Assembly: GCA_027925325.1 (NCBI GenBank)
Contig: AP027133.1
Location: 574,195-606,194, forward strand
DNA: 32,000 nucleotides
Source: Candidatus Saccharimonadota bacterium
Lineage (GTDB): Bacteria; Bacillota_I; Bacilli_A; Mycoplasmatales; Hepatoplasmataceae
Reading direction: 5' to 3'
Position numbers and translations under genes: made by a program. The first letter of the stretch is position 1. Every line of letters begins with the position of its first letter. Under the pieces are notes generated by a model. The model worked only from the letters and a program-made list of their open reading frames with translations, was not told the origin of the DNA and ran no database searches. This document shows, piece after piece, positions 341 through 31,582 of this stretch.

Positions 341-1390
341 TTAAATTTCTCGTGTATATTTATCTGCTAAATTACTATTACTTTCGATATATTCAACTTT
401 TATTTGCAAATGATTATTATTAATTAATTTAAATGATTGATCCATATAATCTTTTGCTTTTGTTTTACTATTCACTTTCCCTTTTTTGATTCAAGAAATT
501 ATTGTTTTGTTATCTTCATATACCAAACAATTATCTATTTCATTTTTTATTAAATATTTAACAAATTGTAAAAATGCAAAAGCCTCTATTTCATTTGCCC
601 ATTCACATTCAGAATTTTCTTTTTTACTTAATAATTGGCCTTTTTGATCAGCAATTATTGCAAGTCCTATTTTATTTTTATTTGAAGAAATGGCTCCATC
701 AATATAAAAAATATTATTATTTGAATTATTGTTGTTGTTTTTATTTAAATTTTTAATATATTTTGCAAAATCTAAATAAAAAATAACAGTTGAAATTTGA
801 CTTAAAAAAGATAATAAATCTTTTTCTTTTGCAATCTTTTTGATTTTATTATTAAAATGAATATAAAAATTATCGAGAAGTCCTTCATTAAAAATTTGTT
901 TTAAATTATCTTTTTCCCCTTTAATAAAAAAATATAATTTTTTTAAATTATCTTTTTGATAATTAATATCGGTTGAATTTAAAATATCTTTTATTAAATT
1001 ATCTGCACTTTCATTAGTAACAGATAAAGATTTTTTTTCATTTAAAATTGAACTTATGATTTTAATAATTTCATTTCTATTTTGCAATAATTTTTGATTA
1101 TTGTTAAATTTTGAATTTTTATCTAAATGAATTTTAATTCTTTTTAAAAAAGAAATTTTTCCATCATAATCTAATTCATCAAAAATTTTTCTCATTTTTT
1201 TTCAATTTGATAAATCTTTAAAAACTTCAAAAATTTGATTATCCTTTAAGTTTGTCTTTTTTACAAAATCACTAATAAAATTAGAAAATTCTTTATAATC
1301 TTCACTTATTAATGTAACTTTCCCGTTTTTAGGATTTCAAAGTAATTCAAGTATCTTATCAATCGCGATTTTTAATTCATATTCTTCCAT
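341..1390 (-). CDS. Hypothetical protein (349 aa) with a C-terminal RNase H (type 1) fold domain and an unassigned N-terminal region of ~200 aa.
   Basis: Track ORF 491..1195 extends in the same frame through TGA codons at 491, 1202 and 1337, up to the ATG at 1390 (a TAA lies just upstream) and down to the TAA at 341. All codons were checked. The C-terminus carries a DEDD-like pattern: FYIDGA, ANEIEAFA, LVYEDNKTI, SNLADKY. Confidence 0.6.
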
Positions 1391-1402: not shown

Positions 1403-2179
1403 TTATTTTCCTCTCAATACTAGTCAATCAGCAATTTCAGCATAGATATTTTCTTTTGTTTCTTGATATTTATATCGCGCTCATTTTGCTCAAAAATAAG
1501 CCGTAAAGATTCTTGCTATTACAAACTTGTAATAATCAAAATCTAAAGAAAGATTAATATAAGTTTGTAAAAAAACATCCTCTTGTTTTTTTGTTAATTT
1601 TCTTTTTACAATAAAACTCGCAAGATCTAAATATTTGCTATTAATTCCACCATATTCATAATCAATAATTTTAATATTATCATTATTTAAAATTAAAATA
1701 TTACCATCTACAATATCATTATTTGCATAAACAAGATCCTTGTTTAAAAATTTTAACACTTCTTCTAAGATAATACTTTCATTTGGATAATTAAAAATTT
1801 CTTTTTGTGTATTTAAAAAATTTCAAGTTTTTAAAAAATTAGGTTCTCTTAATTTTGTATTATTTTTAATTTTAATATTATGAAGTCGATAAATTTCTTT
1901 TGCACAATTAATCAAAATTTGATCTTTTACCTCTTCTGTTTTAAACGCTTTATGTTTAATTATTTTTGTACAAAAATAATTATTTTCAATCTCTAAATAA
2001 TCAAAAACTTTTAATTCTTTCAAAATTAAAATTTCTTGATTTCCATAAACATCAGTAAATTTGTTTTTAACAAAAAACTTACAAATAATATCATTTTTAT
2101 AATAAACATTATTTGATAATCCAATTTTATCTTTTGCTCAATTAGGATCAATTTTAATTATTTTTTCGTTTTTTTTCAT
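1403..2179 (-). CDS. Choline/ethanolamine kinase-like phosphotransferase (APH/ChoK fold, LicA-like).
   Basis: Track ORFs 1490..1759 and 1823..2023 share a frame and join via TGA codons, ending at the TAA at 1403. Kinase motifs are NNDIVDGNILILNN (catalytic loop) and IIDYEYGGINSKYLDLASF. The start is assigned to the ATG at 2179, which overlaps the pyrG 3' end by 26 nt. The start is less certain than the body. Confidence 0.65.
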
Positions 2180-3761
2180 ACTGATAAGCGGCATTAATAA
2201 AAGATTCAAAAAGTGGATCTAATTTATATAAGGTCGTATTGAATTCAGGATGAAATTGAACACCAATATAAAAATCATTATTTTTATATTCGACAATTTC
2301 CACTAAATTATTTTCCGGATTAATTCCTGAAAATAATAATCCTTTTTGTTCTAATTCCTTTTTATATTTATTATTAAACTCATAACGATGGCGATGTCTT
2401 TCCTTTATCATACTTTTCTTATATATTCTTTTTGCAAGCGTATTATCAATTAATTTACAATTATATTCACCCAAACGCATTGTTCCACCTAATTTTTTTA
2501 AATCTTGATCTTTAAGTAAATGAATAATAAAATTATTTTTATTTGGATTTAATTCTTCATGATAAACATTTAATTTAGCGATATTTTTGGCAAATTCTAA
2601 AATTAATAATTGCATCCCAAAACATATTCCAAGTAATGGAATATTATTTTCTCTTGCATATTTAATTGCACTAATTTTTCCTGAAGTTCCTTCAATTCCA
2701 AATCCTCCAGCGATAATTATTCCTGAAAAATTTTTTAAATCATTTACATTTAAAGATTTTGCATCAAATAATTCTATTTTTAAAGAAATTTTTTGATAAA
2801 TGGAAATAATTCTTAATGATTCAATAATTGAAAGATAAGAATCTTTTAAATTATGATATTTACCAACTATTACAATTTTAATTTCGCCAATTTTTTGATC
2901 TTTAATTAATTTATCAATCAATTGATAATTTTTAATTGGTGAATATTTTAAATTTAAATTTAAAATATCTGCAATTTTTTGATCAATTTTTTCATCTACT
3001 AATTTTTGAGGAATTTGATAAACACTATCAACGTTTTCAAGTTCAAAAATATAATCTTTGTGAACACTACAATTAGCTGAAATTTTATCAATGATTGTAG
3101 AAGAGATTTTTTCTTCACTTCGTGTTACGAGAAAATTAGGAAAAACACCAAGACTATGCAATTGTTTCACACTATGCTGAAAAGGTTTACTTTTATATTC
3201 TTTATTTATTTTAAGAAAGGGAATAAAACCAATATGAATATTTATGACATTTTCTCTTTGAAACTGCAATTGTCTAATCGTTTCAAAGTAAGGAATAGAT
3301 TCAATATCACCAACCGTACCACCAATTTCAACAACTAAAAGATCATATCCATTTAAATTTTTTAATACAAGTTCAATAATTTTGTCGATAACATTAGGAA
3401 TAATTTGAACTGTTTTACCCAAATATTTTCCCTTTCGTTCATCTTCTATTAAATTACTATAAATTTTTCCTGAACTAATTGAAGAATTTTTTGTAAGATT
3501 TTGATTAATAAATCTTTCATAATGACCAATATCTAAATCTGTTTCTCCGCCATCTCTAGTAACAAAAACCTCTCCATGTTCAATTGGTGAAATTGTCCCT
3601 GGATCAACATTTAAATAAGGATCAAATTTCATCATATTTACTTTTAATTTTCTTTCTTTAAAGATAGAAGCAAGCGAAGCAGAAAAAATACCTTTTCCTA
3701 ATGATGATAATACTCCACCTGTTATAAAAATTATCTTCCCATTTATTTTTCTATAATTCAT
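2154..3761 (-). CDS. pyrG: CTP synthase.
   Basis: Intact 535-aa ORF. It has the N-terminal synthetase domain (FITGGVLSSLGKGI) and the C-terminal glutamine amidotransferase domain (LGICFGMQ, HRHRYEFN, QFHPEF). Confidence 0.95.
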   Translation of the reverse strand: MNYRKINGKIIFITGGVLSSLGKGIFSASLASIFKERKLKVNMMKFDPYLNVDPGTISPIEHGEVFVTRDGGETDLDIGHYERFINQNLTKNSSISSGKIYSNLIEDERKGKYLGKTVQIIPNVIDKIIELVLKNLNGYDLLVVEIGGTVGDIESIPYFETIRQLQFQRENVINIHIGFIPFLKINKEYKSKPFQHSVKQLHSLGVFPNFLVTRSEEKISSTIIDKISANCSVHKDYIFELENVDSVYQIPQKLVDEKIDQKIADILNLNLKYSPIKNYQLIDKLIKDQKIGEIKIVIVGKYHNLKDSYLSIIESLRIISIYQKISLKIELFDAKSLNVNDLKNFSGIIIAGGFGIEGTSGKISAIKYARENNIPLLGICFGMQLLILEFAKNIAKLNVYHEELNPNKNNFIIHLLKDQDLKKLGGTMRLGEYNCKLIDNTLAKRIYKKSMIKERHRHRYEFNNKYKKELEQKGLLFSGINPENNLVEIVEYKNNDFYIGVQFHPEFNTTLYKLDPLFESFINAAYQYEKKRKNN

Positions 3762-3844
3762 AATATTAAAATTATAAATAAAATAGTAATTTTATTTAAT
3801 TGTAATTTTTATATACTTTATTAAAATATATTATTTAATTGTTT

Positions 3845-5323
3845 ATGAAAAAAATATTTATTACAACCCCTATTTACTATCCTAATGATAAATTGCATAT
3901 CGGTCATGCTTATACTACAATATTAGCTGATATTTATAAGAGATATAAAAAAATGCAAGGATATGAAGTTTTTTTTCTTACAGGTTCAGATGAACATGGG
4001 CAAAAAATAACAGAAAAAGCAAGACAAGAAAAGCAAAACGAAAAAGAATATGTAGATAAAATTATTGAAAATTTTAAATTATTATGAGCAAAATTAAATA
4101 TAAATTACGACTACTTCATAAGAACAACTGATAAATATCATGAACAATTTGTACAAGAAACTTTCCAAGAATTATTAACAAAATCTTACATATATAAGGG
4201 CAAATATAAAGGATTATATTGCAAATATGATGAAACATTTTTTACAGAGAAACAAGCTCTTGTTGGAAATATCTGTCCAGAATGTAAAAGAAAGTTAGTG
4301 TCCTTAGAAGAAGAAAGTTATTTTTTAAAAGTAACTTTATTTAAAAATTGAATAAAAGAAAAATTACAAAAAACCGATTTATTAACTCCAAATCATCTTA
4401 AAAAAGAATTAATAAATAATTTTTTAGATAAATCATTTTCTGATTTATCAATTACAAGAAAATCAATAAGATGAGGAATAAGTCTCTTAAATGATAAAAA
4501 TTATGTCATTTATGTCTGATTTGATGCACTATTAAATTATCTATCTGTTTTTAAAAATAAAGAAAGTAAATATAAAGTAACTGATATTTGAAAAAAAGAT
4601 TCGAATTGAGAAATTTTACAGATAATCGGAAAAGAAATTACAAGATTCCACGCATTATATTGACCGATTATTTTAAAAATGAAAAATTATCGTACTCCTA
4701 AAATTTTCGCTCACGGTTGAATAGTAACAGATCAAGGTGAGAAAATGTCGAAATCAAAAAATAATGCTATTGATCCATTATTTTTAATTGATAAATATGG
4801 AAGTGATGCAATTAGATTTTATTTGGTGAAAAATATTGCTCTAGGAGAAGATGGAAGATTTTCTGAAAATTTATTAATAAAAACAATCAATGGAATATTA
4901 GTAAATAAATATTCAAATTTAATCGCTCGAACAGATAAAATGTTAAATAAATATTTTGCAGGATTTATACCACAAGAAATAATTTATAGTGATTATGAGA
5001 TAAATTTGTCAAAAGAGATTAACAATTTCAAAAATAATTATTATAAGTTTATGGATCAATTTAAACTTAATCAAGCAATTGATGAAATTATTAAATATAT
5101 TGAAACTTTAAATAAATACATCGAAAATAAAGAACCTTGAAAAGAAAAAGATCAAAAATACTTAAAGGTAATCTTAAATTTTTTAACAAAAAATATTTTC
5201 GATCTTTCTTATCTATTTTCTCCTTTTATTCCAAATTCATTTCAAATTATAAATGAGTGATTAAATCAAGGAGATTTTACAAAAAAAATTAATAAAATAA
5301 ATTTTTTATTTACAAAAATATAA
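3845..5323 (+). CDS. metG: Methionine--tRNA ligase.
   Basis: Track fragments 3839..4087 and 4745..5140 are in one frame and are joined by several TGA=Trp codons. Motifs: HIGH (LHIGHAYT), KMSKS (EKMSKSKNN) and the CPECKRK zinc knuckle. I prefer the ATG at 3845 over the TTG at 3839. The gene ends at the TAA at 5321-5323. Confidence 0.93.
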
Positions 5324-6235
5324 TTATTTATATAATTCTGTATCAATTAATTTAACTTCCGTAAAATCAATCTTATTTAAATTGGCTTTATCAAAATTTA
5401 CCGCTTTTAATTCGGCTCCTTTTAAATTAGCTTTTGCAAGATTTGCTCTACTTAAATTTACATTAAGTAATTTAGCATTACTAAAATCAACATGAGATAA
5501 ATTTGCATAAGATAAATCTACATTTTCAAGAATTGCATTTTTTCAAGTTGATAAATTTAAATTAGATTTACTTAAATCTGTCTTTTTTAAAGTTGTTCCA
5601 TTAAAATTAGCATAACTGAAATTTGTTTTATTAAAATTACAATTTATAAATTTAGCATTAATAAAACTTCCTTTTTTAAGAGACATATTTTTAAAATTTG
5701 TTTTATTAAAATTTGCTCCATCAAAAATCGGAGCAATAAAATTTAAATAGCTAAATTTTGCATCCAAAAGATTTGTATTACTAAAATTAACTTTTCTTAA
5801 TTTTTCGCCAATAAAATTTATTAAAAATTTTTTATTATTAATTGAAAAATTACTTAGATTAGCATTTGTAAGATCACTTTTTGCAAATCTAATTTTTCTG
5901 AAATTAGCATCAGTAAGATTTACATCATTAAAGTTAGCATCAGTAAAATTAACTTTTAAAAAATTTGCTTTAGTAAGAGTTGCATTTTTAAAATTTGCTT
6001 CTGATAAATTACATTTTATGAAATTAGATTCCTTTAAATTTGTCTCTATAAAATTTGCCATCTTTAAATTAGATTTTTTAAATAATGAAAAACTTAAATT
6101 TGCTTTACTAAAATTAATTTTATTTAAATTTGATTTTGCAAAAAGAGAATTATTTAAATTTTTGGTTGAAAAATTAATTCCTGTTAAATTTTTATTTTTA
6201 ATTTCTGTAATTTCTTTTTTATTATTATTTTCCAT
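5324..6235 (-). CDS. Pentapeptide-repeat protein (303 aa), almost entirely A(D/N)LxX-type repeats.
   Basis: Track ORF 5543..6235 continues through the TGA at 5543 to the TAA at 5324; all codons were checked. Repeats of the type ANLSFSLFKKSNLKMANFIETNLKESNF and ANFTDANFNDVNLTDANF run along the whole length, and there are no TM segments. The start lies 11 nt downstream of the helicase-nuclease stop on the same strand. Confidence 0.85.
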
Positions 6236-6246
6236 AAAATTCCTTT

Positions 6247-9200
6247 CTATAAATTAATAGTATTTTTAATAATTTTTTCAATATTATTTAATTCCATTTT
6301 TTGATTATTAAATCAATTTGAAATTCAAATACGATAAAAATTATAACCTCTTTCTTTTAAAAAGTCTTGCTTTGAAATATCTCTCTCTCTTACAGATTTA
6401 TAAGAATTTTTAATCGCCTGATCAGATTCTATCAAAAGAATTATTTTATGATTTTCATCATAAAATAAAAAATCTGCTTTATATCCATAAGTTTTATCTC
6501 TATTTATTACATATAAATTATATCTTTTTGCTATCTTTATAAGTTCTTGATATAAATCTTTTTCAAATTTAGAATTAAAATTTTTAATACTAAATTGATT
6601 TTGATTGATTATTTTTTTATTATTATATGACTTAATACAATGTTTTAAAAATCTATAAAGAATATAAATTCCACTTTCTAAATTATCTTTATGTGCTTGA
6701 TTACGAATAAAAAAATTCTCAAAATCATTTTGTCTAATTGACGTAATTACATACATTTTTAATTTTGCTCTTGTAACCGCAACATTAATTCTATTTACTC
6801 CGCCAAATTTATTAATTGGACCAAAATTAAAAGATATTTTTCCTTCTTCATTTCTTCCATACAAAGTTGAAAAAATAATTATATCCCTTTCGTCCCCCTG
6901 AACATTTTCAATATTTTTAACAAAAAGATTGACATCATCACTATTAATTCAATTAGAAAAATTAAAATCATTATAACTTATACTTGCTAATTTCTCTGAA
7001 AGATATTTTTCTTGTTTTGAGTTCATTGTAATAATTCCAATAGATTTTTTATTTAAATTTAAATTATTTTTAATTTGATATAAAATTTCTATAATTTTAT
7101 CGATCTCGTTATGATTAAGTCCATTTTTATAAATTGAATCTTTTAATTCAAAATATTCTATCGGTTGAAAATTTTTATTTTTTCCATTTTTACTAATAAA
7201 TATAAGATTATCATTATAAAAAATATTATTTGAATATTCAATTAATTCCTTAAAATCAGAACGATAATGATATTTAAGCATAATATGTGGAAATTTAGTT
7301 TTTGCATAATTTAACAATGACAATTTATCATCAATTAAATTTTTCTCCTCAAATTTTTCAAATTCTTGATCAATATTTCTTGATACAAAAAAATTGGTTG
7401 GAGCTAATTGCTTTTCATCTCCTAAAATTACAACTTTTTTAGATCTTTCAATCGCAGGTAAACTTCTTTCAATAAACATCTGTGAAGCTTCATCAAAAAT
7501 AACAAGATCAAACTTATCCTTAAGATCAAAAATACTTGAAATTGTCTCAGGATTTAATAATCAAATTTTATATAAATTCTTAAAGGTATCTTTTTCAGTT
7601 TTTAAAAACATTTTGATACCTCATTTTTTTTTCGGATCAAAAACTATTCTTTTAAATTGGGGCGATGAATTTTCAAAATTTATTAAAAATTGCTTTGCTA
7701 AATAATACTTTGTTATTTCCGAGAATTTTTTAATTTTTGTTTGTCTTAAATTTATAAATTTATCATAATTATTTTTTCAATCAAATATTTGATCTCTTAA
7801 TTTAAATATATATTTATATTTATTAAGTCTTTCTCGAAAAATTTTAAATTCTATTATTTGCAAAAGTTTATCAAATTTTATTTTCTGACTTTTTATATAG
7901 TTAATAAAATCTTTTAGAAATGAAAATTCTTCTTCAGAAAAATTTTTTATTATTTGAAATTTGTTAAATTTCAAAGTTACATTTTGCTCTTCTTTTTTAT
8001 ATTTTGTAATTAATTTTTCCTGATTTTTTAAATTATCAAAAAAAATCTTATTATATAAATCTTCTATTTTAGTTTTAGTTTGATGATAATTTTTTAAATT
8101 TAAAAGACAATTTTGCAAAAATGTAATCATTTCTGTCATATCTTGATTTACTTGTAAATCTCTTTTTAAACCGGCGAATTTTCGATCATATTTTCTTTTG
8201 CTATTTAAAAATTTTTTCTTTAAAAGGAAAAAATTGTTTTTTAAATTTAAATATTTTTCTTCAATATTTTCCTTTTTCAAATAATTTGAAAATATATTAA
8301 AAACAAAATTATTTTTAATTACCAAATTAATATAATCAACTAAAAATGGTGTAAAAACTGAAAGATATATTAAATCATCACAAATCTTAAATAATTGTTC
8401 AAATCGATCAATTGGATAATCAATTAGAAATGAGCTTAAACGATCATTTCTAAGATATTCATAAATATCTTTATATTTTTTTTCATTTCAATTTTGTAAT
8501 AAATCTTTTCATAATAAAGATATCGTCTTTTTTTCTTTTTTTAATTCTTCTTTTTTTCCATTAATCAAAAAATTAAAATAATCAGAAATATCACCATCGT
8601 TTTTTTTAATAAAATCCAAACCATAAATATTAGCTATTTCATCTCTTAATTTGATCATTTGTTCAATTTTCGATAATAAATTATTTTCAAATAATTCTTT
8701 TATTTTATTTAAAAAAATAGAAAAATTATTATTTTTATTTCCTTCATTTAAAATAAAAGAGTTGATTTTTTCATCATAAATACTCTCTTTTAAAAATTCA
8801 TTAAAATTTTTAAATTTAAAATAAAACTCCTCAATTAATTCATATATTTTTTTATTTTCAAAAAATTCAATATCTTTATAAAAATCAATTGAATCCATAT
8901 TTTTTAAATACTCTACAATTTGATCTGATAAATTGTCAATCTTATTAATTTCTTCTTGAAATTTTTTATCATTAATAAATTCAAATTTTTCTGTTTCTAA
9001 TATTTTTTTTGCCGCTTCATAAGATTGATTTATCTGTTGATAAAAATCACCTTTATTATTCATATCTGTAAGATAAAACGCAAATTTATTTAAATTATTC
9101 AATCTTTGATAAATAACATCAAGCGCAGCTCTTTTTTCTGAAACTAAAGCAATTTTTTTATTTTTTAAAATAGCATCATAGATGATTGATAAAATTGTTT

Positions 9201-10311
9201 GTGATTTTCCTGTTCCAGGAGGTCCTCAAATAACTAAATTATTAGTCTTATTTTCATTTATTTTTTTTAAAGCAAAAAACTGTTGATTATTTAAATTATC
9301 AATATAAAATAATCCTTTTTCATCAAGATTATATGCATTTTTTTCAATATGATTATCAAACAAAAATTGAGAATTTTTTTGTGAATTTTTTTTATTTACT
9401 AAACTATATCTTTCTAGTTGTTTTGTAAAATATCCTTTTTCTAAAATTAAATTTAGATCTCTTTTTACAGCATTATCATACTTATCAAAAAAACCGATTG
9501 TAAAACTTTTTTCTATCTTAAAAAGAAAATTAAATTTTTCAATGTTACTATAATCTTTAAATTGATCTAAATTATCAGAATAAGATTCAAGATAGGTAAT
9601 AATTTCTTTTTTATTTCTTTTAAAATTAACAAATAAATTTTTAATATTTGATAAAAATGATTTTTCATAATCAAAATAATAATCTTTATTTTTTAAAAAA
9701 TTTTCAATTATAAAATTGTTAACTATAACATCTCTTGTATTATCATAATACATTCTTACTTTATGTAAATTATTATCAAATATTAAAATTATCGGAACAA
9801 AAAAAATTGGTGATCTAATAGGAATTGTCTTATTTATATTTGTAAAATTTGTAAGAAAATAATAAGGGACAAAATAAAAGGTTTGATAACCGATTTCATT
9901 TTTAATTTTTTGATTTTCTTTTTCAATATTATTAAAAATTAAAAAATTTTTTTCTTGATCTGTTTTTTTACTAGAAATTTTTTTTCTAATTTTTCTACAA
10001 TATATTTTTTCTTTATTTTTTATATAAAATAAATTAAAATTTTTAATAAAATTTTCCTTATTTTCAATAATATTCAATTTTAAATCAACTTTTAAATTCT
10101 TAATATCTTTTTTTAAAAAGCTATTTAATTTTAATAATGATTCTTCTTGTAAATTGGAAATTGAAAAATTATAATTAGTACTTTTCGATGTTCAAATATT
10201 GCGATTTCTCTTATTTAAATTTGTTAGCTTTTTTTGAAAATTTTCTAATTCCTGTTTAAATTTTTCTGATATCTTTATTTTTTGCAAATTATTTTCTTCT
10301 TTATGCTTCAT
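6247..10311 (-). CDS. Large (1354 aa) DUF4011-like / Upf1-like SF1 helicase / Vsr-DUF559-like endonuclease fusion (Hhe-like architecture).
   Basis: Five track ORFs (6325.., 6949.., 7777.., 8509.., 9226..) all share one frame and are separated only by TGA. The ends were checked codon by codon: ATG at 10311 preceded by AGGAG and an upstream TAA, and TAG at 6247. Motifs: Walker A VIWGPPGTGKSQT, motif II VIFDEASQM, motif III ILGDEKQLAPT, VQGDERDIIIFS, RINVAVTRAK. The C-terminal nuclease-like block is YKADFLFYDENHKIILLIESDQ...RERDISKQDFLKERGYNFYRIW. Confidence 0.8.
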
Positions 10312-10425
10312 TTCTTATCTCCTAAATTTTCAAAAAAATGAATAAGTAAAATTATTATATATTTTTATAAAAATATAAAATTAAGATATTTTTTAAATAT
10401 TTAATTAAAATATAATTAATTTAGA

Positions 10426-11154
10426 ATGACTAATGAAGAATTAATTTTTATTAAAAACAATAATTATGATTATTATTTAAGAATAATAACAAAAATAGAA
10501 GATGAGTATCAAAAAAGTAAAAAAATAAAACTAGCAAATATTTTTTCTGCTTTTTTTTATTATCTTGGTTATTTAATTTTGATTACTTTATTTCAAAACG
10601 CCGCTGCTTTAAGTTTTGCAAAAAAAGGACAATTTAGAAAAGCTGCTTTATATGCATTGCTTGGTTTAAATATTTTTTTCTTTTTATATTTAGGAGAAAG
10701 TAAAAAATGAAAAAAACATTATAATCAAAAAATTAAAAAAATAAATTTAACTCAAGAAATTCAAGAAAAAATTAAAAATCAAGAATTTTTAAAAGGCTTA
10801 ACAGAAGATAAATTAGAATTAATTAAAAAAGAAAAATTATTTAATACAAATCCTCCTAAAGATAAAATCAAATTAGGCTTAGTTTATGGCTCAAGTGTAA
10901 GAGCTAAAAATTTATTTAAAGATATTGGGGCAAATATTGTAAATGTAAGTGGAGGAAAAATGCAAAGTTATTTTTATCTTTTAAATGATGCAAGAGAAGA
11001 TGCGATCGAACAGATGATTAAAAATGCAATATTAACCTACGGTGAATTAGATAATAAAGAAATTCATAATATAAGATTATCAACATCACAAATTGCAAAT
11101 GGTGCAAGTGAAATTTTAGTATATGGAACGGTTGTTAAAAATAAAAATTCTTAA
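10426..11154 (+). CDS. Membrane-anchored YbjQ/UPF0145-domain protein (242 aa): two predicted N-terminal TM helices, a K/E-rich linker and a C-terminal YbjQ domain.
   Basis: Track ORFs 10426..10710 and 10960..11154 are in one frame and join through the TGA at 10708. The C-terminus LGLVYGSSVRAKNLFKDIGANIVNVSGGKMQSYFYLLNDAREDAIEQMIKNA...ILVYGTVVK aligns well by eye to E. coli YbjQ ([43 protein letters not shown]...VSGTAVK). Hydrophobic segments: IFSAFFYYLGYLILITLF and ALYALLGLNIFFFLYL. Confidence 0.72.
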
Positions 11155-12902
11155 TTTATTAAAATTACAGCAAATTTTTTATTCTCAGTTTCCATTTTAC
11201 TTACAAGTTCTTTGATTTGCTTTTCCTCTAAATAATCATCATGTCTTATTTGTTCAAAATTTCTTAAACCCATTTCCCCAATCATTTGATAAAGGGATGC
11301 AAGTGAATTTATTGCTCTCAATTCAAAATGAATTTCATAAATTTTATTAGGAAGAAAATCTCGATCACTATTATAATAAAGAATCTTTTTTGGTTGTTTA
11401 AAAATATTTTGTTCAAATTCTTGTTTTAAATAATTTTCAATTGCAAAAATCATCTCTAATAATTTTAGAGTATCAATTTTTTCTATATCATCTTTAATAC
11501 TATGCAATCCTTTTTCTAAAGATAATATTTTTGTGCTTCCAATTTGATCTCTTTCAAAAATATTTATTTTAAATTGACTATCATATAGAAAAGGTGAATG
11601 TGTTGCAAATATAATGTATATACTCTTAAATAATTCCTTATTTTTTGCAATTAAATTTTTTAAATATTTTTTTAATTCAATTTGTAAAGGAATTGATAAA
11701 TTATTTTCCGGTTCATCAACCATAATAATTTTAATTTGATCATTAGAATTATCATGAATAATAGAATTTAAAGTAATAATAAAATCTAAAAAGACCTTTG
11801 CTCCATTACTATTATTTTTACTTTCGTTACTTCCTATTAATCAATCACCTTTAGAATTAAATTGTAATTTTATTTGATTATTTGTAATATTTATTTTAAT
11901 TTCAAAATCAATGAATTCAAAATTTTGTAAAACCTTTTTTAAATTATTTCGAATCTTTTCTTCAATTTTTGATTTTTCTTCATTTTTTTCATTTCCATTA
12001 GGCATTTCATAATAAAATTTTAATTGTTCTTTTTCAGGATATAAAAAATTTAAAATATCATTAATTCTTGCCTTTTCCGAAAAAGCTTCACCTGTATTTA
12101 TTCTTTCAAACAAATAATTTAAATCAAAATTATATTCAAGATCATTAATTCTTGAATTATTTTTAAGATAAACAATTTCAGGTTTCTTGATCAAAATTTT
12201 TTCAATATTTAAAAAAACTCTAAAAATAAATTCAGTTTTTAAATAAATTTTAGTGTTATCTATATTTAAATAAGCAATCTCAGAAGTTAATTCAAATCTT
12301 CCTTTGCTTTTTGCATATGAAATTACTCTTTTAATCTTATTAAATATTTTTTCTAATAATTTTTGTGTTTTTAGACCAACATTGTAATCTCTAAATTCCT
12401 GATAAAAATTTTTATAGAAATCTTCATTATTAGGATTTTTAAGATATTCAAAAATAATTTTTTTATAAATTGAATTATTATCAAGTGCATGTAAATAATT
12501 ATTATTAGAATCTACTCCTACTTTTCTTCCTTCATTTCGAAAAATATTCATATATTTATCTTTTAAACTCTTTGGAAATAAATAATTTAAACTATTTTCT
12601 AATATTTTTAATTCTTTTTCCGAAAAATTATAATTAATAAAAACTCTCGATACGATATCTTCTTCTTTTTGGATCGCAAAATTTATTTTTTCAGAACCCT
12701 TAATATCACGTAAAAATTTAGTTCTTAAATCTAAATTATTTCTTCTTAAAAAAGTTACCGCTTCTAAAAAAGATGTTTTCCCAGAAGAATTTAAACCCAA
12801 AAGTAAATTTATATTATTACTATATAAATCTATCTTTTGTTTTTTAAAGATTGTCTTTATCCCCTCTACTTCAAAAGAAATTTTATTTTCTTCTATATTC
12901 AT
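11151..12902 (-). CDS. ABC/OLD-family (AAA_15/AAA_21-like) P-loop ATPase, 583 aa, with an unassigned C-terminal region of ~145 aa.
   Basis: Track ORFs 11151..11723 and 11841..12902 share a frame and join via the TGA at 11841; the gap codons were checked. Motifs: Walker A LLLGLNSSGKTSFLEA, a long helical insert, Walker B IKIIMVDEPENNLSIPLQ, and the His-switch region IIFATHSPFL. Confidence 0.75.
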
Positions 12903-13046
12903 ATTCTTAATTCTCCATTTTAATATATTTAATTTATATTTTTTAAATTATATATAATGTTTGATATAAAATAAATTATAAATATAATAATAATTTATCT
13001 TTTTTAAAATTTTTCGATTTAGATTAAATGTAACTTTTTGCCTATT

Positions 13047-13820
13047 TTAAATTTGATAAAATTTTTTAGCATTTTTATTTGTGATATCTATTAATTTATT
13101 TAATTCAATATTTTTCATTTTAGCAAATTCTTCAAGTACATATTTTAAATAAAAAGGATAATTTTTTTTACCACGAAATGGAACAGGAGTAAGATATGGG
13201 CAATCTGTTTCGAATAATATTTTCTCAAGTGGGATAATTTTTGCATTTTCTTTTACTTGATTTGCATTTTTAAATGTAAGAATTCCGTTGACACTAATCA
13301 TTAAATTTTTTAACTTTAAAAATTGTAAAAGAATTTTCTTTTCGCCGGTAAAAGAATGTATTAAATAATTTAAATTAGGAAATTTTAAGATTATTTCATA
13401 AATATCCTCATAAGCATCTCTTCCATGAATAACAACCGGTAAATTTAATTCATCCGCTAATTTTAACTGAAAAATAAATCATTTTTTTTGAATTATTTTT
13501 TCAGTTAATTTTATATTTCTTGAGTAATCAAGTCCTATTTCTCCAATAGCTTTAATTTTTTCTTTATTTTCTATGATTGTTTTTTTTAATCATTTAGCTT
13601 TATTTTGATCTAATTCTTTTACATCATAAGGATGAATTCCAAGCACAGGAATTAATTTTTTATATTTTTTATTTAAATTTAAAATTTCTTCTATTGAATT
13701 TAAATCTGTTCCAATATTAAAAACATATTCAAGTTCATTTAAAGATTTCTCTATTATATCTTCTAAATTATCCTGATAATATGACTTAACAAGATGAGCA
13801 TGTGTATCTATTGCTTTCAT
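13047..13820 (-). CDS. tatD: TatD-family metal-dependent DNase/hydrolase.
   Basis: Track ORFs 13047..13301 and 13590..13820 share a frame and join via the TGA codons at 13590 and 13479; the gap was checked. Motifs: IDTHAHL, GEIGLDY, PVVIHGRDA, HSFTG, ETDCPYL. Confidence 0.9.
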
Positions 13821-13825
13821 TTATT

Positions 13826-15166
13826 TTATTTTCCTATACAAAAAGTACTAAACAATTGATAAATATAATCTTCATCTAATTCTTTTCCTAAAATTTTATA
13901 AAGATCTCTTAAAATTATTTCAATTTCAAATGAAATTATATCTTCTTGATAATTTTCATCGATCATTTTGATTATATTTGTTAATTTTTCATTTATATTT
14001 TTGAAATTATTAATTTGATTATCTGTAATTAAAATTGCTTCTTCAATTGTAAATTTTGCAATTAATTTTGTTTCAATATATTTAATAATCGCCTTTTCAA
14101 GTTCTAAAATATTATTTTCTTTTGCAGAAATTTTTAATAAATTATCATTTAATTTATTTTTTTTAAGTTGATCTTTTTTGTTTAAAACAGTGATTATTTT
14201 ATTAGAATAATTACTAATAATTTCCTTAAAATTATTTAATTGTTTATTTACTGATTTCGTACCATCGATAAGTAAAATAATAATATCGGCATTTTTTAAT
14301 GTATTAAATGATTTTTTAATTCCGATCTTTTCTACTTTATTACCGAATTTACGAAGTCCTGCTGTATCTTGGAATGTTATTAAATGATTTTTTAAATAAA
14401 TTGATGATTCTACAACATCTCTTGTTGTTCCTTTGTAATTTGAAACAATTGCTCTTTCTTCATTTAAAATTTTGTTTAATAAGGTTGATTTTCCGGCATT
14501 GGGTTGTCCAATTAATGCAATTTTAATTCCCTTTCCAATTTTAATTACTTTCGTTGATTCATTTATTACCTTTAAAAATTCTTTATTTAATAATTTTAAT
14601 TCTTGATTTATTTTCTTTAAATTATAAATCGGAAGATCAGTATTTTCTGGATAATCAATTGCGACTTGAATTCTTGAGATTATATCTTCCAATTTTTTTA
14701 TTATTTTATTAATAAATAATCCTTGTTTATTATTTAAATTTTTTGTTGCCTGATTTGCAAGTGTGTAATCATTAGTAAGAATAAGCGTATTAATCGCCTC
14801 TGATTGTGTTAAATTAATCTTTCCATTCATAAATGCCTGTTGCATAAATTCACCAGGATTTGCTTGTGTAATATTCATTTTTGATAATTTTTCAATTATT
14901 TTATTTGCAATTACCATCGATCCATGAAAATGAATTTCACAAACATCTTCTCCTGTAAAAGAATTTGGCTTTTTAAAAAGTAAAACAAGTGTATCATCGA
15001 TAAATTCTTTTGCAAAAAATAACTTATGAAAGGTAACAGAATTTGCCTTTATCTCTAGATCCTTATATAGATTTTTCGCTATGTTAAAAGTAGCAGGACC
15101 AGAAATACGAATAATTCCGACATTTTGATTTATTGGTTTTGTAACTAAAGAATAAATTGTTTGCAA
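13826..15166 (-). CDS. mnmE: tRNA modification GTPase MnmE (TrmE/ThdF).
   Basis: Intact 446-aa ORF with G-domain motifs GQPNAGKSTLLN, DTAGLR and NKKD, and the C-terminal CIGK motif. It uses a TTG start at 15166 with a GGAG about 8 nt upstream. Confidence 0.93.
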   Translation of the reverse strand: MQTIYSLVTKPINQNVGIIRISGPATFNIAKNLYKDLEIKANSVTFHKLFFAKEFIDDTLVLLFKKPNSFTGEDVCEIHFHGSMVIANKIIEKLSKMNITQANPGEFMQQAFMNGKINLTQSEAINTLILTNDYTLANQATKNLNNKQGLFINKIIKKLEDIISRIQVAIDYPENTDLPIYNLKKINQELKLLNKEFLKVINESTKVIKIGKGIKIALIGQPNAGKSTLLNKILNEERAIVSNYKGTTRDVVESSIYLKNHLITFQDTAGLRKFGNKVEKIGIKKSFNTLKNADIIILLIDGTKSVNKQLNNFKEIISNYSNKIITVLNKKDQLKKNKLNDNLLKISAKENNILELEKAIIKYIETKLIAKFTIEEAILITDNQINNFKNINEKLTNIIKMIDENYQEDIISFEIEIILRDLYKILGKELDEDYIYQLFSTFCIGK

Positions 15167-15210
15167 ATAAAACTCCGAATATTATTTTATTAAATTTAAA
15201 ATATTAAATC

Positions 15211-21256: not shown

Positions 21257-21334
21257 TTTTACTCATATTATTATTTAAATATATTAGTTATTATAAAACT
21301 TTTATTAATTAATAATTAATAAAAGTAAATAAAA

Positions 21335-21412
21335 AAAGTCGCACATGACACTTCTCGACGTGGCTGCTTTGTTTCCAACCTGACCAGGTTACAAGGTTAT
21401 CATTGCGACAAT
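21335..21412 (-). ncRNA. ffs: Small (4.5S-type) signal recognition particle RNA.
   Basis: The minus-strand sequence gtcgcaatgataaccttgtaACCTGGTCAGGTTGGAAACAAAGCAGCCacgtcgagaagtgtcatgtgcgac contains the conserved SRP domain IV motif (CCAGGUCAGGU..GGAA..AGCAGCC). The 5' gtcgcaatga pairs with the 3' tcatgtgcgac, and a U-run follows. It lies immediately upstream of dnaX, as scr does in Bacillus. The ends are approximate (within a few nt). Confidence 0.8.
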
Positions 21413-21434
21413 AGAAATTATAACATTATTTAAT

Positions 21435-27139: not shown

Positions 27140-27147
27140 ATTATTTC

Positions 27148-28167
27148 CTAAATTTCAATAAATTGAATTTTTTGTTTCAAATTTTGATCGACTTTTGCTT
27201 TCGGTGATGTAATAAAAGAATTTAAATTTTTATCAAGTAAAATTTTTAATAATAAATTTGAATTTTTTTTATCTAATTCTGAAAAAATATCATCCAAAAG
27301 TAAGATAAATTCTAAATCATATTGCTCTCTTAAATATTCAATAAAAGAAATTACAAGCAATAAAATTGCCATTTTCATGTGTCCATCTGAAGAAATATTT
27401 AAATAAAATTCTTTATCATATTCAATAATATAATCATCTTTTGTAATTGTAATTGGTGGTTTTAAGAGTAGATTTTCTAAAATATAATCTTTTAAAATAA
27501 TTGCTTTTTTGTAATATAATTTTAGTTCTTTATTTAGATAATTTTTTGTATTTTTCTGATAAAAAAAGTTTATGTTTTCAACTTCTTTTTCTCTTATATT
27601 GATTATCTCTTCTTCAAGATCTTTTAATGAATTAACAATTTCTGATTTTAAAGATCGATTTATAACAATTGAATTATTATTTATATCTTGCAAAGAAATC
27701 AATAATTTATCAAAATCTAATAATAACTTTTCATAAATTTTGTGATCTTGTTTAATTAACATATTAATTAAACTTTGTCTTGTTGTTTTTTGATATTTAA
27801 AATTATTGATTAATTTATTATTTATAAAAATTGGAATTGAAACAATTGTCTTATTAATACCGATATTTTCTGTCCCATTAAGTAAAACTTTTTTTTTAAT
27901 TGGAGATAATTCTACATCCAATTCCTTTCAAAGTTTATTAAAATCCAATAATTTTAAATTAATTTTTGCAAGTTGTTGTTCGTTTTTGATTAAATCTTGA
28001 AATTTCTTTGTTCGAAAAGAGGAATTTTCCATTGCAAAAAAAAAGGCCTCTAAGATACTTGTTTTACCGCTGCCATTTTCGCCTAAAAAAACATTTATTT
28101 TTTTTTTAAAATAAATGTTTTTTTCACTATGATTGCGAAAATTTTGTAAATTAATTTCTTTAATCAT
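27148..28167 (-). CDS. recF: DNA replication and repair protein RecF.
   Basis: Track ORFs 27148..27921 and 27928..28167 share a frame and are joined by the TGA at 27928. Motifs: N-terminal INLQNFRNH, Walker [16 protein letters not shown] and Walker [13 protein letters not shown]. Confidence 0.85.
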
Positions 28168-28235
28168 TTGTTATAAATTATACCTTTTTTTAGATTATTA
28201 AAGATAAGTTAATTAATAATGATTAAAAAGAAAAA

Positions 28236-31200: not shown

Positions 31201-31238
31201 TTTACTTCTTCATAAAATGAGTGATTACCTTTTGCCAT
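28236..31238 (-). CDS. yidC: Membrane protein insertase YidC, 1000 aa. It has a lipoprotein-type signal sequence and an unusually large (~700 aa) extracytoplasmic D/N/Y/S-rich domain before the Oxa1/YidC core.
   Basis: Track ORFs 28317.., 29016.., 30234.. and 30711.. all share one frame. I read every codon of the gaps (28851-29015, 29349-30233, 30675-30710, 31077-31238, 28236-28316) and found only TGA, with no TAA or TAG. The start is the ATG at 31238 (a TAG lies upstream). The signal and lipobox read ILFSFLTVVTLWGCAAE. The C-terminal core (FVWPLAQLS...MQEVQTQVAQINAKY...KQQEIMALYRKNNVNPFASL...MPIFLSIW) is YidC-like. It follows rnpA in the conserved order. Confidence 0.8.
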
Positions 31239-31243
31239 CTATT

Positions 31244-31570: not shown

Positions 31571-31582
31571 TAGTTGATTTTA

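What the first reader, a model, noticed from the sequence alone, without database searches (positions are those of the whole stretch)
5324..12902. Accessory, defence-like island inserted between tatD and metG in an otherwise core origin-proximal block
**Core context.** The flanking genes are universal housekeeping genes. The order gyrB-gyrA-serS-...-tmk-(holB position)-...-mnmE-tatD matches what I recall from Mycoplasma genitalium (MG003 to MG009).

**The interruption.** Between tatD and metG lie four genes with no housekeeping role:
- an OLD/ABC-type ATPase
- a TM-YbjQ protein
- a giant helicase-nuclease
- a pentapeptide-repeat protein

Three of the four carry domains typical of anti-phage or anti-plasmid systems. 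By eye the region looks even more AT- and K/N/I-rich than the neighbouring core genes; I did not compute this. I saw no integrase, transposase, tRNA or flanking direct repeats, so how it arrived is unclear. Mollicutes carry few defence systems, so 7.6 kb spent on such genes in a reduced genome suggests they are under selection.
Basis: partly seen in the sequence, partly recalled or inferred. Interest (0 to 1): 0.75.

Follow-up and report, generated by a model that had tools for sequence, protein, structure and literature searches.

The report
Clade-fixed helicase-nuclease gene block, not an island
The four genes are real and one is a close cousin of known anti-phage helicase-nucleases, but the block is an old, stably inherited and selected part of the chromosome of these isopod-gut mollicutes, not a recently inserted accessory island.

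Summary
The window comes from Candidatus Hepatoplasma scabrum, which uses genetic code 4. All four genes are present at the stated coordinates and are intact:
- an ABC-type ATPase (11151-12902, minus strand)
- a membrane-anchored YbjQ protein (10426-11154, plus strand)
- a 1354-aa SF1 helicase fused to an MTES_1575 nuclease (6247-10311, minus strand)
- a pentapeptide-repeat protein, PRP (5324-6235, minus strand)

ATPase, helicase and PRP lie between tatD and metG in every contig of the H. crinochetorum/H. scabrum clade that I could fetch. Their amino-acid identities and dN/dS values match those of the flanking housekeeping genes. Every Trp codon is TGA. No integrase, tRNA or real flanking repeat is present. 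Only YbjQ is variable; it is deleted in two lineages.

The "defence-like" reading is partly right. The helicase-nuclease is homologous to PDC-S37, ProA and Hhe but scores below their curated cut-offs. The ATPase is closest to PtuA, OLD, AriA and GajA ATPases but has no nuclease partner. PRP and YbjQ have no defence link.

The block is three separate transcription units. The one tight pair is helicase followed by PRP, and that pairing is specific to Hepatoplasma. Interest is modest.

The parts
11151..12902 (-). 583-aa ABC-type (AAA_15/AAA_21) ATPase, HPPSJP_5260. Walker A is GLNSSGKT (aa 36-43), Walker B is DEPE (aa 396-399) and the H-loop is THSP (aa 434-437). A small, non-conserved C-terminal alpha/beta domain spans aa 506-582.
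   Evidence: Pfam. PADLOC AriA/PtuA at about 1e-12. The profile against PDB gives PtuA/retron ATPase 5e-13, Eco8 OLD 6e-12, AriA 2e-8 and GajA 2e-7. The AF2 model has pLDDT 71.6 and matches SMC, Rad50, PtuA and GajA heads. There is no Toprim domain and no invariant acidic residue in the C-terminus. The family is narrow, with 34 hits in 1.8 billion representatives.
12903..13046 (.). 144-nt tatD-ATPase spacer, which holds lineage-specific insertions in relatives.
   Evidence: It is empty in the window, L002 and L011. H. crinochetorum Ps has a 729-aa repetitive protein on the opposite strand here. The Av/Tokyo-type lineages have a 463-465-aa RCC1-like protein here.
10426..11154 (+). 242-aa protein with two N-terminal hydrophobic segments (about aa 36-57 and 72-92) and a C-terminal YbjQ_1 (UPF0145) domain (aa 149-238). 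It converges on the ATPase, and their 3' ends overlap by 4 nt.
   Evidence: Pfam YbjQ_1 1.2e-18. Hydropathy. No PADLOC hit. The gene is deleted in L001 and L011, leaving a possible 24-aa remnant.
10312..10425 (.). 114-nt, 7.9% GC divergent spacer between YbjQ and the helicase. An AGGAGA Shine-Dalgarno sequence lies 7 nt upstream of the helicase ATG.
   Evidence: Sequence. GC. The promoter scan is uninformative in this AT-rich DNA, with 105 sites found against 104 expected.
6247..10311 (-). 1354-aa SF1 (Upf1/DNA2-like) helicase fused to a nuclease, HPPSJP_5240. The N-terminal DUF4011-like region covers aa 1-345. Walker A (GPPGTGKS) starts at aa 363. A roughly 550-aa insert follows. DEASQ starts at aa 940, QGDERD at 1138 and VAVTRA at 1177.
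   Evidence: Pfam AAA_11, AAA_12 and MTES_1575. PADLOC PDC-S37 2.5e-121 and Hhe 1.6e-69. NCBIfam ProA 370 bits against a cut-off of 1500, and Hhe 288 bits against 2000. Motif conservation. Exact match to the H. scabrum protein.
6274..6567 (-). C-terminal MTES_1575 (Vsr/DUF559-type PD-(D/E)xK) nuclease domain of the helicase protein, aa 1249-1346.
   Evidence: Pfam 1.7e-14. The D...ExD and RERD motifs are kept in Hepatoplasma but are degenerate in Tyloplasma (P0016) and P0013.
6236..6246 (-). 11-nt spacer between the helicase stop (TAG) and the PRP ATG. It contains an AAAGGA Shine-Dalgarno-like sequence, which indicates a bicistronic operon.
   Evidence: Sequence. The same 8-16-nt spacing is seen in L001, L002, L003 and L008.
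5324..6235 (-). 303-aa pentapeptide-repeat protein with about 57 pentapeptides. It is cytoplasmic and strongly basic (pI 9.9, net charge about +22). Its stop codon abuts the stop codon of the convergent metG.
   Evidence: Pfam Pentapeptide 3.8e-53. It scores below every NCBIfam cut-off, for example HetL 145 against 260 and Qnr 75 against 240. Charge. A PRP is found only next to the helicase in the H. crinochetorum/scabrum clade.

Best explanation
**What it is.** The 7.6 kb is a vertically inherited block fixed in the chromosome of the Hepatoplasma crinochetorum/scabrum clade. It is not a mobile or recently inserted island. It holds three independent transcription units.

**Unit 1: helicase-nuclease plus PRP.**
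- This is a bicistronic operon. The first gene encodes an Hhe/PDC-S37-type single-chain enzyme: an Upf1-like SF1 helicase with a C-terminal MTES_1575 PD-(D/E)xK nuclease and all catalytic motifs intact.
- Eleven nucleotides downstream lies the gene for a basic pentapeptide-repeat protein.
- Inferred mechanism: the enzyme loads on DNA, translocates using ATP and cuts with its own nuclease domain.
- Inferred targets: foreign DNA or aberrantly replicating DNA, such as phage or plasmid. This is by analogy with Hhe, which reacts to the activity of phage DNA-metabolism genes.
- The PRP is a lineage-specific accessory whose role is unknown. It is more likely a scaffold or nucleic-acid binder than an acidic DNA mimic.

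**Unit 2: ATPase.** This is an orphan, very divergent ABC ATPase of the PtuA/AriA/OLD/GajA class. It has no nuclease domain and no nuclease partner. I infer a sensor or regulatory ATPase.

**Unit 3: YbjQ protein.** This is a dispensable membrane-anchored YbjQ protein, unrelated to the other genes.

**Shown:** gene content, domains, intact motifs, positional conservation, purifying selection and host-like composition.

**Inferred:** the defence role, the DNA substrate and any role for the PRP.
For: **Origin and conservation**
- The helicase is a 100% match to Ca. H. scabrum.
- The block has the same position and order in H. crinochetorum Ps, three Logan assemblies and the Av/Tokyo2021 lineage.
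- Against Ps, amino-acid identity is 83% for the ATPase, 72.5% for the helicase and 66% for PRP. For the neighbours it is MnmE 85%, PyrG 81%, MetG 78%, TatD 74%, RsmI 71% and HolB 67%.
- On a close pair, dN/dS is 0.083, 0.115 and 0.319 for those three genes, against 0.050-0.181 for the neighbours.
- Codon usage matches the host and every Trp is TGA.
- There is no tRNA, no real flanking repeat and no integrase.

**Helicase-nuclease**
- It is homologous to PDC-S37 (2.5e-121), ProA (1.9e-110) and Hhe (1e-85).
- Its catalytic motifs are intact.
- Related copies stand alone among housekeeping genes in more distant Hepatoplasmataceae.
- In a neighbour-joining tree these copies group with the Hepatoplasma proteins.
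- 80 metagenomic homologues have no PRP or YbjQ neighbour; the ATPase profile gave one marginal hit, E 5e-4 at L045. This fits a single-gene system.
- The spacer between helicase and PRP is 8-16 nt in all lineages and contains a Shine-Dalgarno-like sequence.

**ATPase**
- Its nearest solved relatives are PtuA, OLD, AriA and GajA.
- A paralogue in H. crinochetorum Ps sits among KAP NTPases and a Tsp45I/methyltransferase pair.

**Literature**
- Hhe is described as a single gene with helicase and nuclease domains, triggered by the functions of T7 class II DNA-metabolism genes (bioRxiv 10.1101/2024.10.10.617714).
Against: - Defence genes usually turn over quickly and have patchy distributions. Here the genes are as stable and as constrained as tRNA synthetase genes, which fits a housekeeping role equally well.
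- The helicase fails the curated cut-offs of both validated families (288 against 2000 bits for Hhe, 370 against 1500 bits for ProA).
- DUF4011 is not detected directly in the window protein.
- The ATPase has no effector partner.
- No phage of Hepatoplasma is known to me.
- The published genome paper lists only CRISPR-Cas9 as a defence system in H. scabrum (PMC10928387).
- I could not inspect H. vulgare. No helicase hit from a 662-kb contig appeared among the best 120 hits, so conservation across the whole genus or family is unproven.
- Clustering in the tree may be inflated by the shared AT-rich amino-acid bias.
Confidence: 0.6

Rival explanations
1. The block is an accessory defence island that was acquired horizontally and inserted between tatD and metG. 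It would be variable among relatives and foreign in composition.
For: - The block is the lowest-GC 7.6-kb stretch of the window, at 18.8% against 23.6%.
- The helicase and ATPase classes are typical of defence islands.
- The block is absent next to tatD in a more distant relative, where tatD is followed by ksgA and prs (L013). It therefore arose or moved here at some point before the clade diversified.
- The spacers around the block accept lineage-specific genes.
Against: - The block is present at the same place in all six or more clade lineages fetched.
- Its identities and dN/dS match those of core genes.
- GC3 and codon choice match core genes, and TGA encodes Trp throughout.
- The lower GC comes from codon positions 1 and 2. 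That is an amino-acid drift effect, and holB and recR show it too.
- There is no integrase, tRNA or direct repeat.
Confidence: 0.1
2. The block has a housekeeping role in genome maintenance. The helicase-nuclease, possibly with the SMC/Rad50-like ABC ATPase, would process the cell's own DNA: end resection, restart of stalled forks or recombination. In these reduced genomes it would replace the missing RecBCD/AddAB-type machinery.
For: - Conservation and selection match those of core genes.
- Helicase copies are embedded among housekeeping genes in every Hepatoplasmataceae context seen. One lies next to an AP endonuclease (L004) and one downstream of a UvrD/PcrA helicase (L014).
- The ATPase fold matches SMC and Rad50 heads as well as it matches defence ATPases.
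- Proteins with the same architecture are ordinary chromosomal genes in M. bovis (PMC8249566) and M. hominis (PMC12228374).
Against: - The best sequence matches are to defence families (PDC-S37, ProA, Hhe), not to AddA, RecB or Dna2.
- The ATPase profile prefers PtuA, OLD and AriA (1e-13 to 1e-8) over RecF, Rad50 and SMC (1e-6 to 1e-4).
- The M. hominis homologue is disrupted by an ICE in a viable strain.
- The nuclease motifs are degenerate in the Tyloplasma copy.
- The helicase appears to be missing from H. vulgare, judged from the hit list. An essential repair enzyme would not be expected to be absent.
Confidence: 0.25
3. The four genes form one integrated system. The ATPase senses infection, the helicase-nuclease and the membrane YbjQ protein act as effectors, and the PRP regulates them.
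For: - The genes are adjacent in all clade genomes.
- ABC ATPases of this class normally work with a nuclease partner, as in PtuAB, AriAB and GajAB.
Against: - The genes form three transcription units on two strands.
- YbjQ is lost in two lineages in which the ATPase still has dN/dS 0.083.
- The helicase occurs without the ATPase in L004, L005 and L014.
- The ATPase relative occurs without the helicase in L010.
- None of 80 helicase loci has these partners.
- Adjacency carries no information in genomes that are collinear throughout (PMC10928387).
Confidence: 0.05

Closest known systems
Hhe (single-gene anti-phage system: DUF4011, SF1 helicase and Vsr/DUF559-type nuclease; NCBIfam NF042953, PADLOC Hhe)
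   Same: It has the same order of parts: an N-terminal DUF4011-like region, a split AAA_11/AAA_12 Upf1-like helicase core and a C-terminal MTES_1575 nuclease. E-values are 1e-85 (NCBIfam) and 1.6e-69 (PADLOC). The wider family appears to act as a stand-alone gene.
   Different: It has 1354 aa against a profile of about 1800-1900 positions, and only the C-terminal third aligns well. It scores 288 bits against a cut-off of 2000. DUF4011 is not detected directly. It is fixed in the chromosome rather than sitting in an island. A PRP gene follows it.
PDC-S37 (PADLOC-DB v2 candidate system) and ProA (NCBIfam NF058533)
   Same: These are the best-scoring models: PDC-S37 at 404.7 bits (2.5e-121) and ProA at 370.5 bits (1.9e-110). 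Both cover the helicase core and the nuclease (aa ~705-1352).
   Different: The ProA score is far below its cut-off of 1500, and its profile is 1903 positions long. PDC-S37 is, as far as I know, an untested candidate. I found no paper on either.
DUF4011-helicase-MTES_1575 proteins of other Mollicutes (M. bovis Mbov_0647; the M. hominis gene next to ribF)
   Same: The same domain set is reported for chromosomal genes of small mollicute genomes (PMC8249566; PMC12228374).
   Different: I did not compare the sequences directly. The M. hominis copy is dispensable, being split by an ICE. No PRP partner is reported.
ABC ATPases of defence systems: PtuA (Septu, retron I-A), AriA (PARIS), GajA (Gabija) and OLD nucleases
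   Same: It shares the AAA_15/AAA_21 head with an inserted helical region. These are its nearest solved relatives by profile, at 5e-13 to 2e-7, and the fold matches.
   Different: It has no Toprim domain of its own and no adjacent PtuB HNH or AriB Toprim gene. The family is very narrow, with 34 hits in 1.8 billion representatives. It is conserved like a core gene.
Qnr, MfpA and AlbG DNA-mimic pentapeptide-repeat proteins, and HetL
   Same: It has the pentapeptide-repeat beta-helix sequence pattern (Pfam 3.8e-53). Its best NCBIfam hits are HetL at 145 bits and Qnr at 75 bits.
   Different: It scores below all cut-offs. It has 303 aa against about 180-220. It is strongly basic (pI 9.9, net charge about +22), whereas DNA mimics are acidic (my own knowledge). 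It is encoded 11 nt after a helicase-nuclease gene.
YbjQ/UPF0145 family
   Same: The C-terminal domain matches YbjQ_1 at 1.2e-18.
   Different: It has an N-terminal extension of about 145 aa with two hydrophobic segments. It scores below the NCBIfam cut-offs (48 against 181). It has no link to defence models.

Membership tests
Hhe (NF042953 / PADLOC Hhe) | SF1 helicase core with intact Walker A, Walker B and motifs V-VI | tested here: met
   GPPGTGKS starts at aa 363, DEASQ at 940, QGDERD at 1138 and VAVTRA at 1177, and all are conserved across homologues. Pfam AAA_11 and AAA_12.
Hhe (NF042953 / PADLOC Hhe) | C-terminal Vsr/DUF559-type nuclease | tested here: met
   MTES_1575 at 1.7e-14, aa 1249-1346. 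The D...ExD and RERD motifs are kept.
Hhe (NF042953 / PADLOC Hhe) | N-terminal DUF4011 domain | tested here: inconclusive
   It is not reported for the window protein at E <= 0.1. It is recorded for orthologue P0003 (weak) and for the full-length 39% homologue P0005. The AF2 model of aa 1-345 has no PDB match.
Hhe (NF042953 / PADLOC Hhe) | Score at or above the curated equivalog cut-off | tested here: not met
   288.3 bits against a cut-off of 2000.
Hhe (NF042953 / PADLOC Hhe) | Confers phage resistance | not testable with these tools
   This needs an experiment.
ProA (NF058533) | Score at or above the curated equivalog cut-off | tested here: not met
   370.5 bits against a cut-off of 1500. 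The best stretch covers profile positions 1070-1705 of 1903.
PDC-S37 (PADLOC candidate) | Full-length match to the model | tested here: inconclusive
   404.7 bits, E 2.5e-121, in two stretches. The best covers profile positions 726-1342 of 1550. No curated cut-off is given by the tool.
OLD-family nuclease | N-terminal ABC ATPase | tested here: met
   AAA_15 and AAA_21. Eco8 OLD at 5.8e-12 and a class OLD protein at 1.3e-10.
OLD-family nuclease | C-terminal Toprim domain with conserved Glu and DxD | tested here: not met
   There is no Toprim hit. The C-terminal beta-alpha domain (aa 506-582) has no invariant residue across the family.
Septu (PtuAB) / PARIS (AriAB) | ATPase homologous to PtuA or AriA | tested here: met
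   PADLOC AriA 1.1e-12 and PtuA 7.5e-08. PDB PtuA 1.2e-12 and AriA 2.4e-08. The similarity is weak and partial.
Septu (PtuAB) / PARIS (AriAB) | Adjacent nuclease partner (PtuB HNH or AriB Toprim) | tested here: not met
   The neighbours are tatD, YbjQ and the helicase-nuclease. There is no HNH or Toprim ORF. In relatives the upstream neighbour is an RCC1-like or repetitive protein.
Qnr/MfpA-type DNA-mimic PRP | Pentapeptide-repeat beta-helix | tested here: met
   Pfam Pentapeptide 3.8e-53. The protein has about 57 pentapeptides, with runs of 20 or more in register.
Qnr/MfpA-type DNA-mimic PRP | Family score cut-off and net negative charge | tested here: not met
   Qnr 74.9 bits against 240, and MfpA 50.8 against 360. 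pI is 9.87, with K+R 45 against D+E 23.
Mobile genomic or defence island | Integrase, transposase, tRNA target or flanking direct repeats | tested here: not met
   No tRNA. Only AT-rich chance repeats. No such ORF.
Mobile genomic or defence island | Variable presence among close relatives | tested here: not met
   ATPase, helicase and PRP are present at the same site in all clade lineages. Only YbjQ varies.
Mobile genomic or defence island | Composition or codon usage foreign to the host | tested here: not met
   Codon fractions match those of core genes. GC3 is 0.07-0.10 against a core range of 0.078-0.16, so PRP at 0.069 sits just below it. TGA encodes Trp in 13 of 13 cases. The lower total GC lies within the spread of core genes.

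The most novel reading that the evidence does not exclude
The helicase-nuclease and the basic pentapeptide-repeat protein encoded 11 nt downstream form a two-gene variant of the Hhe/PDC-S37 type that has not been described. The PRP would gate, target or scaffold the enzyme. This defence-type module would have been domesticated as a stable, core-like gene pair in a 0.6-Mb symbiont genome, and is probably used against phage or incoming DNA in the isopod gut.
Probability: 0.2. Interest if true: 0.55.

Novelty: new member of a known kind. Interest (0 to 1): 0.3.

Why it matters
- **Correction.** Lower GC together with defence-type domains is not enough to call an island in an AT-rich reduced genome. 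The direct comparison with relatives shows a stable block.
- **Stability.** A helicase-nuclease of the Hhe/PDC-S37 type is kept under selection as strong as that on tRNA synthetases in 0.6-Mb symbiont genomes. That is unusual for defence genes. It raises the question of whether this widespread protein class has a cellular role in DNA maintenance.
- **Inventory.** The published defence inventory of Hepatoplasmataceae lists only restriction-modification systems and CRISPR-Cas9. This gene, the ATPase and its paralogue next to KAP NTPases would add to that list.
- **New pairing.** The conserved helicase-PRP gene pair is a small, testable lead on what pentapeptide-repeat proteins do outside gyrase protection.

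Tried and rejected
1. **Genome-contig scan with a TatD alignment.** The patterns were too specific and found only H. crinochetorum Ps.
2. **TatD protein search.** It gave two more clade lineages and one distant relative. H. vulgare and Tyloplasma were not among the best 120 hits.
3. **Toprim idea for the ATPase C-terminus.** The AF2 model shows a beta-alpha-beta-alpha-beta-alpha-beta domain. The family alignment has no conserved acidic residue. Rejected as a catalytic Toprim.
4. **PRP as an acidic DNA mimic that restrains the nuclease.** This is weakened by pI 9.9 and a net charge of about +22.
5. **Conserved partners of the helicase family.** 80 metagenome loci had no PRP, YbjQ or ATPase neighbour. 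One phmmer rerun failed on an option error, so I used a pentapeptide-register detector instead.
7. **Promoter and terminator scan.** It found no more sites than in shuffled sequence.
8. **Literature.** I found nothing on PDC-S37 or ProA and nothing linking YbjQ to defence. The supplement of the genome paper does not list the locus tags.
9. **MPN153/MG140 as homologues.** This rests on my memory only. One paper calls mpn153 non-essential, but I did not verify the homology.
10. **Rfam.** The only match in the window is an SRP RNA outside the block.

Full report
**Source and gene calls.** The window translates coherently only with TGA read as Trp. Table 4 gives 12,260 aa in long ORFs against 9,134 aa with table 11, and the genes are otherwise split. 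The helicase protein is a 100% match to HPPSJP_5240 of Candidatus Hepatoplasma scabrum, on a 606,194-bp contig. That genome is a published complete MAG from the isopod Porcellio scaber (PMC10928387).

The genes in and around the finding are:

| Gene | Coordinates | Strand | Length |
|---|---|---|---|
| metG | 3845-5323 | + | |
| pentapeptide-repeat protein (PRP) | 5324-6235 | - | 303 aa |
| helicase-nuclease | 6247-10311 | - | 1354 aa |
| membrane-anchored YbjQ protein | 10426-11154 | + | 242 aa |
| ABC ATPase | 11151-12902 | - | 583 aa |
| tatD | 13047-13820 | - | |
| mnmE | 13826-15181 | - | |

The order is rnpA, yidC, recF, gyrB, gyrA, serS, SRP RNA, dnaX, recR, tmk, holB, rsmI, further genes, mnmE, tatD (Pfam labels of the orthologous loci).

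**Check of the observation.** The domain calls hold:
- ATPase: AAA_15 and AAA_21.
- YbjQ_1 behind two hydrophobic segments.
- Helicase: AAA_11, AAA_12 and MTES_1575.
- PRP: Pentapeptide.

"OLD-type" is true only for the ATPase half. No Toprim domain is found. The small C-terminal alpha/beta domain seen in the AF2 model (aa 506-582; pLDDT 71.6 overall) has no conserved acidic residue across the family.

The block is indeed the most AT-rich 7.6 kb of the window, at 18.8% GC against 23.6% for the rest. This is not a foreign signature:
- GC3 is 0.07-0.10 in the block and 0.078-0.16 in core genes.
- Synonymous codon fractions are nearly the same in the two sets.
- All 13 Trp codons are TGA.
- holB (14.8% GC) and recR (17.0% GC) are lower still.
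- The deficit lies in codon positions 1 and 2. That is what weaker amino-acid constraint produces in an AT-biased genome.

There is no tRNA, no integrase or transposase ORF and no credible flanking repeat.

**Is it an inserted, accessory island?** No, at least not within the clade that can be sampled. ATPase, helicase and PRP lie between tatD and metG in each of these:
- H. crinochetorum Ps (L001).
- Three Logan assemblies from other samples (L002; L011; L012).
- The Av/Tokyo2021 lineage (L003, L007-L009).

Amino-acid identity of the window proteins to those of Ps:

| Block gene | Identity | Neighbour | Identity |
|---|---|---|---|
| ATPase | 83% | MnmE | 85% |
| helicase | 72.5% | PyrG | 81% |
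| PRP | 66% | MetG | 78% |
| | | TatD | 74% |
| | | RsmI | 71% |
| | | HolB | 67% |

Against the more distant Tokyo2021 genome the block genes fall to 51-63%, while TatD, MetG and MnmE are at 71-82%.

On a close pair where dS is not saturated (L001 against L011), dN/dS values are:

| Gene | dN/dS |
|---|---|
| MnmE | 0.050 |
| ATPase | 0.083 |
| MetG | 0.095 |
| helicase | 0.115 |
| TatD | 0.181 |
| PRP | 0.319 |

What does vary:
- YbjQ is deleted in L001 and L011, leaving a spacer of about 300 nt and a doubtful 24-aa remnant.
- The tatD-ATPase spacer carries a 729-aa repetitive protein in Ps and a 463-465-aa RCC1-like protein in the Av type.

In a more distant relative (TatD 49% identical, L013) tatD is followed by ksgA and prs, and the block is absent. 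The block was therefore assembled here before the clade diversified, but it is not universal in the family.

I could not read H. vulgare or the tatD region of Tyloplasma.

**Is it one system?** The evidence says no.
- The four genes form three transcription units on two strands.
- YbjQ converges on the ATPase, and their 3' ends overlap by 4 nt. YbjQ diverges from the helicase across a 114-nt spacer.
- The ATPase stays under strong constraint (dN/dS 0.083) in exactly the two lineages that have lost YbjQ.
- Helicase homologues in more distant Hepatoplasmataceae stand alone among housekeeping genes at other places: L004 (39% identity over the full length), Tyloplasma L005 and L014.
- The nearest outside relative of the ATPase (P0124, 31% identity) lies two genes from a tatD but has no helicase nearby.
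- In 80 metagenomic loci that encode helicase homologues, with 6-kb flanks, no PRP or YbjQ was found. The ATPase profile gave only one marginal hit (E 5e-4, L045).
- Hepatoplasma genomes are collinear throughout (PMC10928387), so adjacency alone says little.

The one tight pair is helicase followed by PRP. The sequence reads TAG, then AAAGGAATTTT, then ATG, which is an 11-nt spacer with a Shine-Dalgarno-like sequence. The spacer is 8-16 nt in all lineages. A PRP next to the helicase is seen only in this clade.

**The helicase-nuclease.**
- Its best matches are to defence models. PADLOC gives PDC-S37 2.5e-121 and Hhe 1.6e-69. NCBIfam gives ProA 1.9e-110 and Hhe 1e-85.
- It scores far below the curated equivalog cut-offs: 370 against 1500 bits and 288 against 2000 bits. 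Only the helicase core and the nuclease align well.
- The nearest solved structures by sequence are the Upf1-like helicases IGHMBP2, Upf1/NAM7 and Sen1.
- The catalytic motifs are intact and conserved. The nuclease D...ExD and RERD motifs are kept in Hepatoplasma but are degenerate in the Tyloplasma copy.
- The N-terminal 345 aa are homologous to regions annotated as DUF4011 in relatives. The domain is not detected directly, and its AF2 model matches nothing in the PDB.
- A neighbour-joining tree puts the AT-rich, presumably mollicute homologues in one clade with the Hepatoplasma proteins. This fits vertical descent, but shared compositional bias is a caveat.
- Proteins with this architecture are reported as chromosomal genes in M. 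bovis and M. hominis. In M. hominis one is split by an ICE.
- Hhe is described as a single gene with helicase and nuclease domains. Its activity is triggered by the functions of T7 DNA-metabolism genes rather than by one protein.

**The ATPase.**
- The family is very narrow. A profile search of 1.84 billion representatives found 34 proteins at E <= 1e-3. The named ones are from Hepatoplasma and Spiroplasma.
- By profile, the nearest solved proteins are PtuA and retron ATPases (5e-13), the Eco8 OLD nuclease (6e-12), AriA (2e-8) and GajA (2e-7). These rank ahead of ABC transporters, SMC, Rad50 and RecF.
- By fold it matches SMC and Rad50 heads and the same defence ATPases equally well.
- No nuclease partner is encoded beside it.
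- A paralogue in H. crinochetorum Ps (P0125) lies among two KAP NTPases and a Tsp45I-like enzyme with an N6/N4 methyltransferase. That neighbourhood does look like a defence locus, and it lends indirect support to a conflict-related role for this ATPase family.

**The PRP and the YbjQ protein.**
- The PRP has about 57 pentapeptides and is below every named-family cut-off. It has no PADLOC hit.
- It is strongly basic, with pI 9.9 and 45 K+R against 23 D+E. This argues against the acidic DNA-mimic model of Qnr and MfpA (the acidity of those proteins is my own knowledge). It favours binding to nucleic acid or to an acidic partner.
- YbjQ has no defence link and is dispensable.

**Verdict.** The "defence-like" label is justified for the helicase-nuclease, weakly for the ATPase, and not for the other two genes. 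The "accessory inserted island" label is wrong for this clade.

The most likely reading (about 0.6) is a clade-fixed block. Its centre is a stand-alone Hhe/PDC-S37-type helicase-nuclease that attacks foreign or aberrant DNA, with a lineage-specific PRP co-transcribed. The main rival (about 0.25) is a cellular DNA-maintenance role, which the core-like stability favours.

Nothing here is a new kind of system. The points worth following are the unusual evolutionary stability of a defence-type gene in a 0.6-Mb genome and the conserved helicase-PRP pairing.

Noticed in passing
window 21323-21419 (-): A bacterial small SRP RNA (RF00169, 52.3 bits, E 7.8e-09) lies between serS and dnaX.
   Followed up: no
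window 1403-3791 (-); L001 16569-18935: In H. crinochetorum Ps and in L011, CTP synthase and a choline-kinase domain form one ORF of 786-788 aa. In the window they are two overlapping ORFs in different frames: pyrG at 2154-3791 and choline kinase at 1403-2218 (Pfam 2.3e-09). This is a frameshift, a real split or an assembly error.
   Followed up: partly
window 12903-13046; L001 5518-7707; L008 8510-9901; L012 4868-6265: The tatD-ATPase spacer accepts lineage-specific genes on the opposite strand. Ps has a 729-aa repetitive protein there, and the Av/Tokyo-type lineages have 463-465-aa RCC1-like beta-propeller proteins. A second RCC1-like gene follows metG in the Av type, where the window has pyrG.
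   Followed up: partly
L001 9678-10000; L011 12672-12960: The YbjQ gene is deleted in two lineages. The spacer of about 300 nt may hold a 24-aa remnant of its C-terminus (tblastn E 0.5).
   Followed up: partly
L095 (H. crinochetorum Ps, CWGI01000001.1 301352-318992): A 27%-identical paralogue of the ATPase (P0125) sits among two KAP NTPases, an unknown 721-aa protein, an N6/N4 methyltransferase and a Tsp45I-like restriction enzyme. This is a defence-like neighbourhood about 30 kb from the block. For H. crinochetorum, the table of the 2024 genome paper lists only type I restriction-modification and CRISPR-Cas9, not a type II restriction system.
   Followed up: partly
window 5323/5324 and 11151-11154: Two pairs of convergent genes have no spacer. 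The metG and PRP stop codons abut. The YbjQ and ATPase 3' ends overlap by 4 nt. No terminator-like site lies at either junction.
   Followed up: no
window 25196-31579 (-): rnpA, a 1000-aa YidC-type insertase (60KD_IMP, 5.4e-26) and recF run straight into gyrB with no dnaA or dnaN between them. GC skew does not change sign anywhere in the window, so the origin is not inside it.
   Followed up: no
window 341-1390 (-): A 349-aa protein has a C-terminal RNase H-like (RVT_3) domain (3.1e-05) and an N-terminal half of unknown function.
   Followed up: no
L005 10001-13705 (Tyloplasma litorale) and L014 10001-13681: In these more distant helicase homologues the first nuclease Asp is replaced by Asn. 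In Tyloplasma the ExD motif is also lost. The nuclease may therefore be inactive while the helicase motifs stay intact.
   Followed up: no
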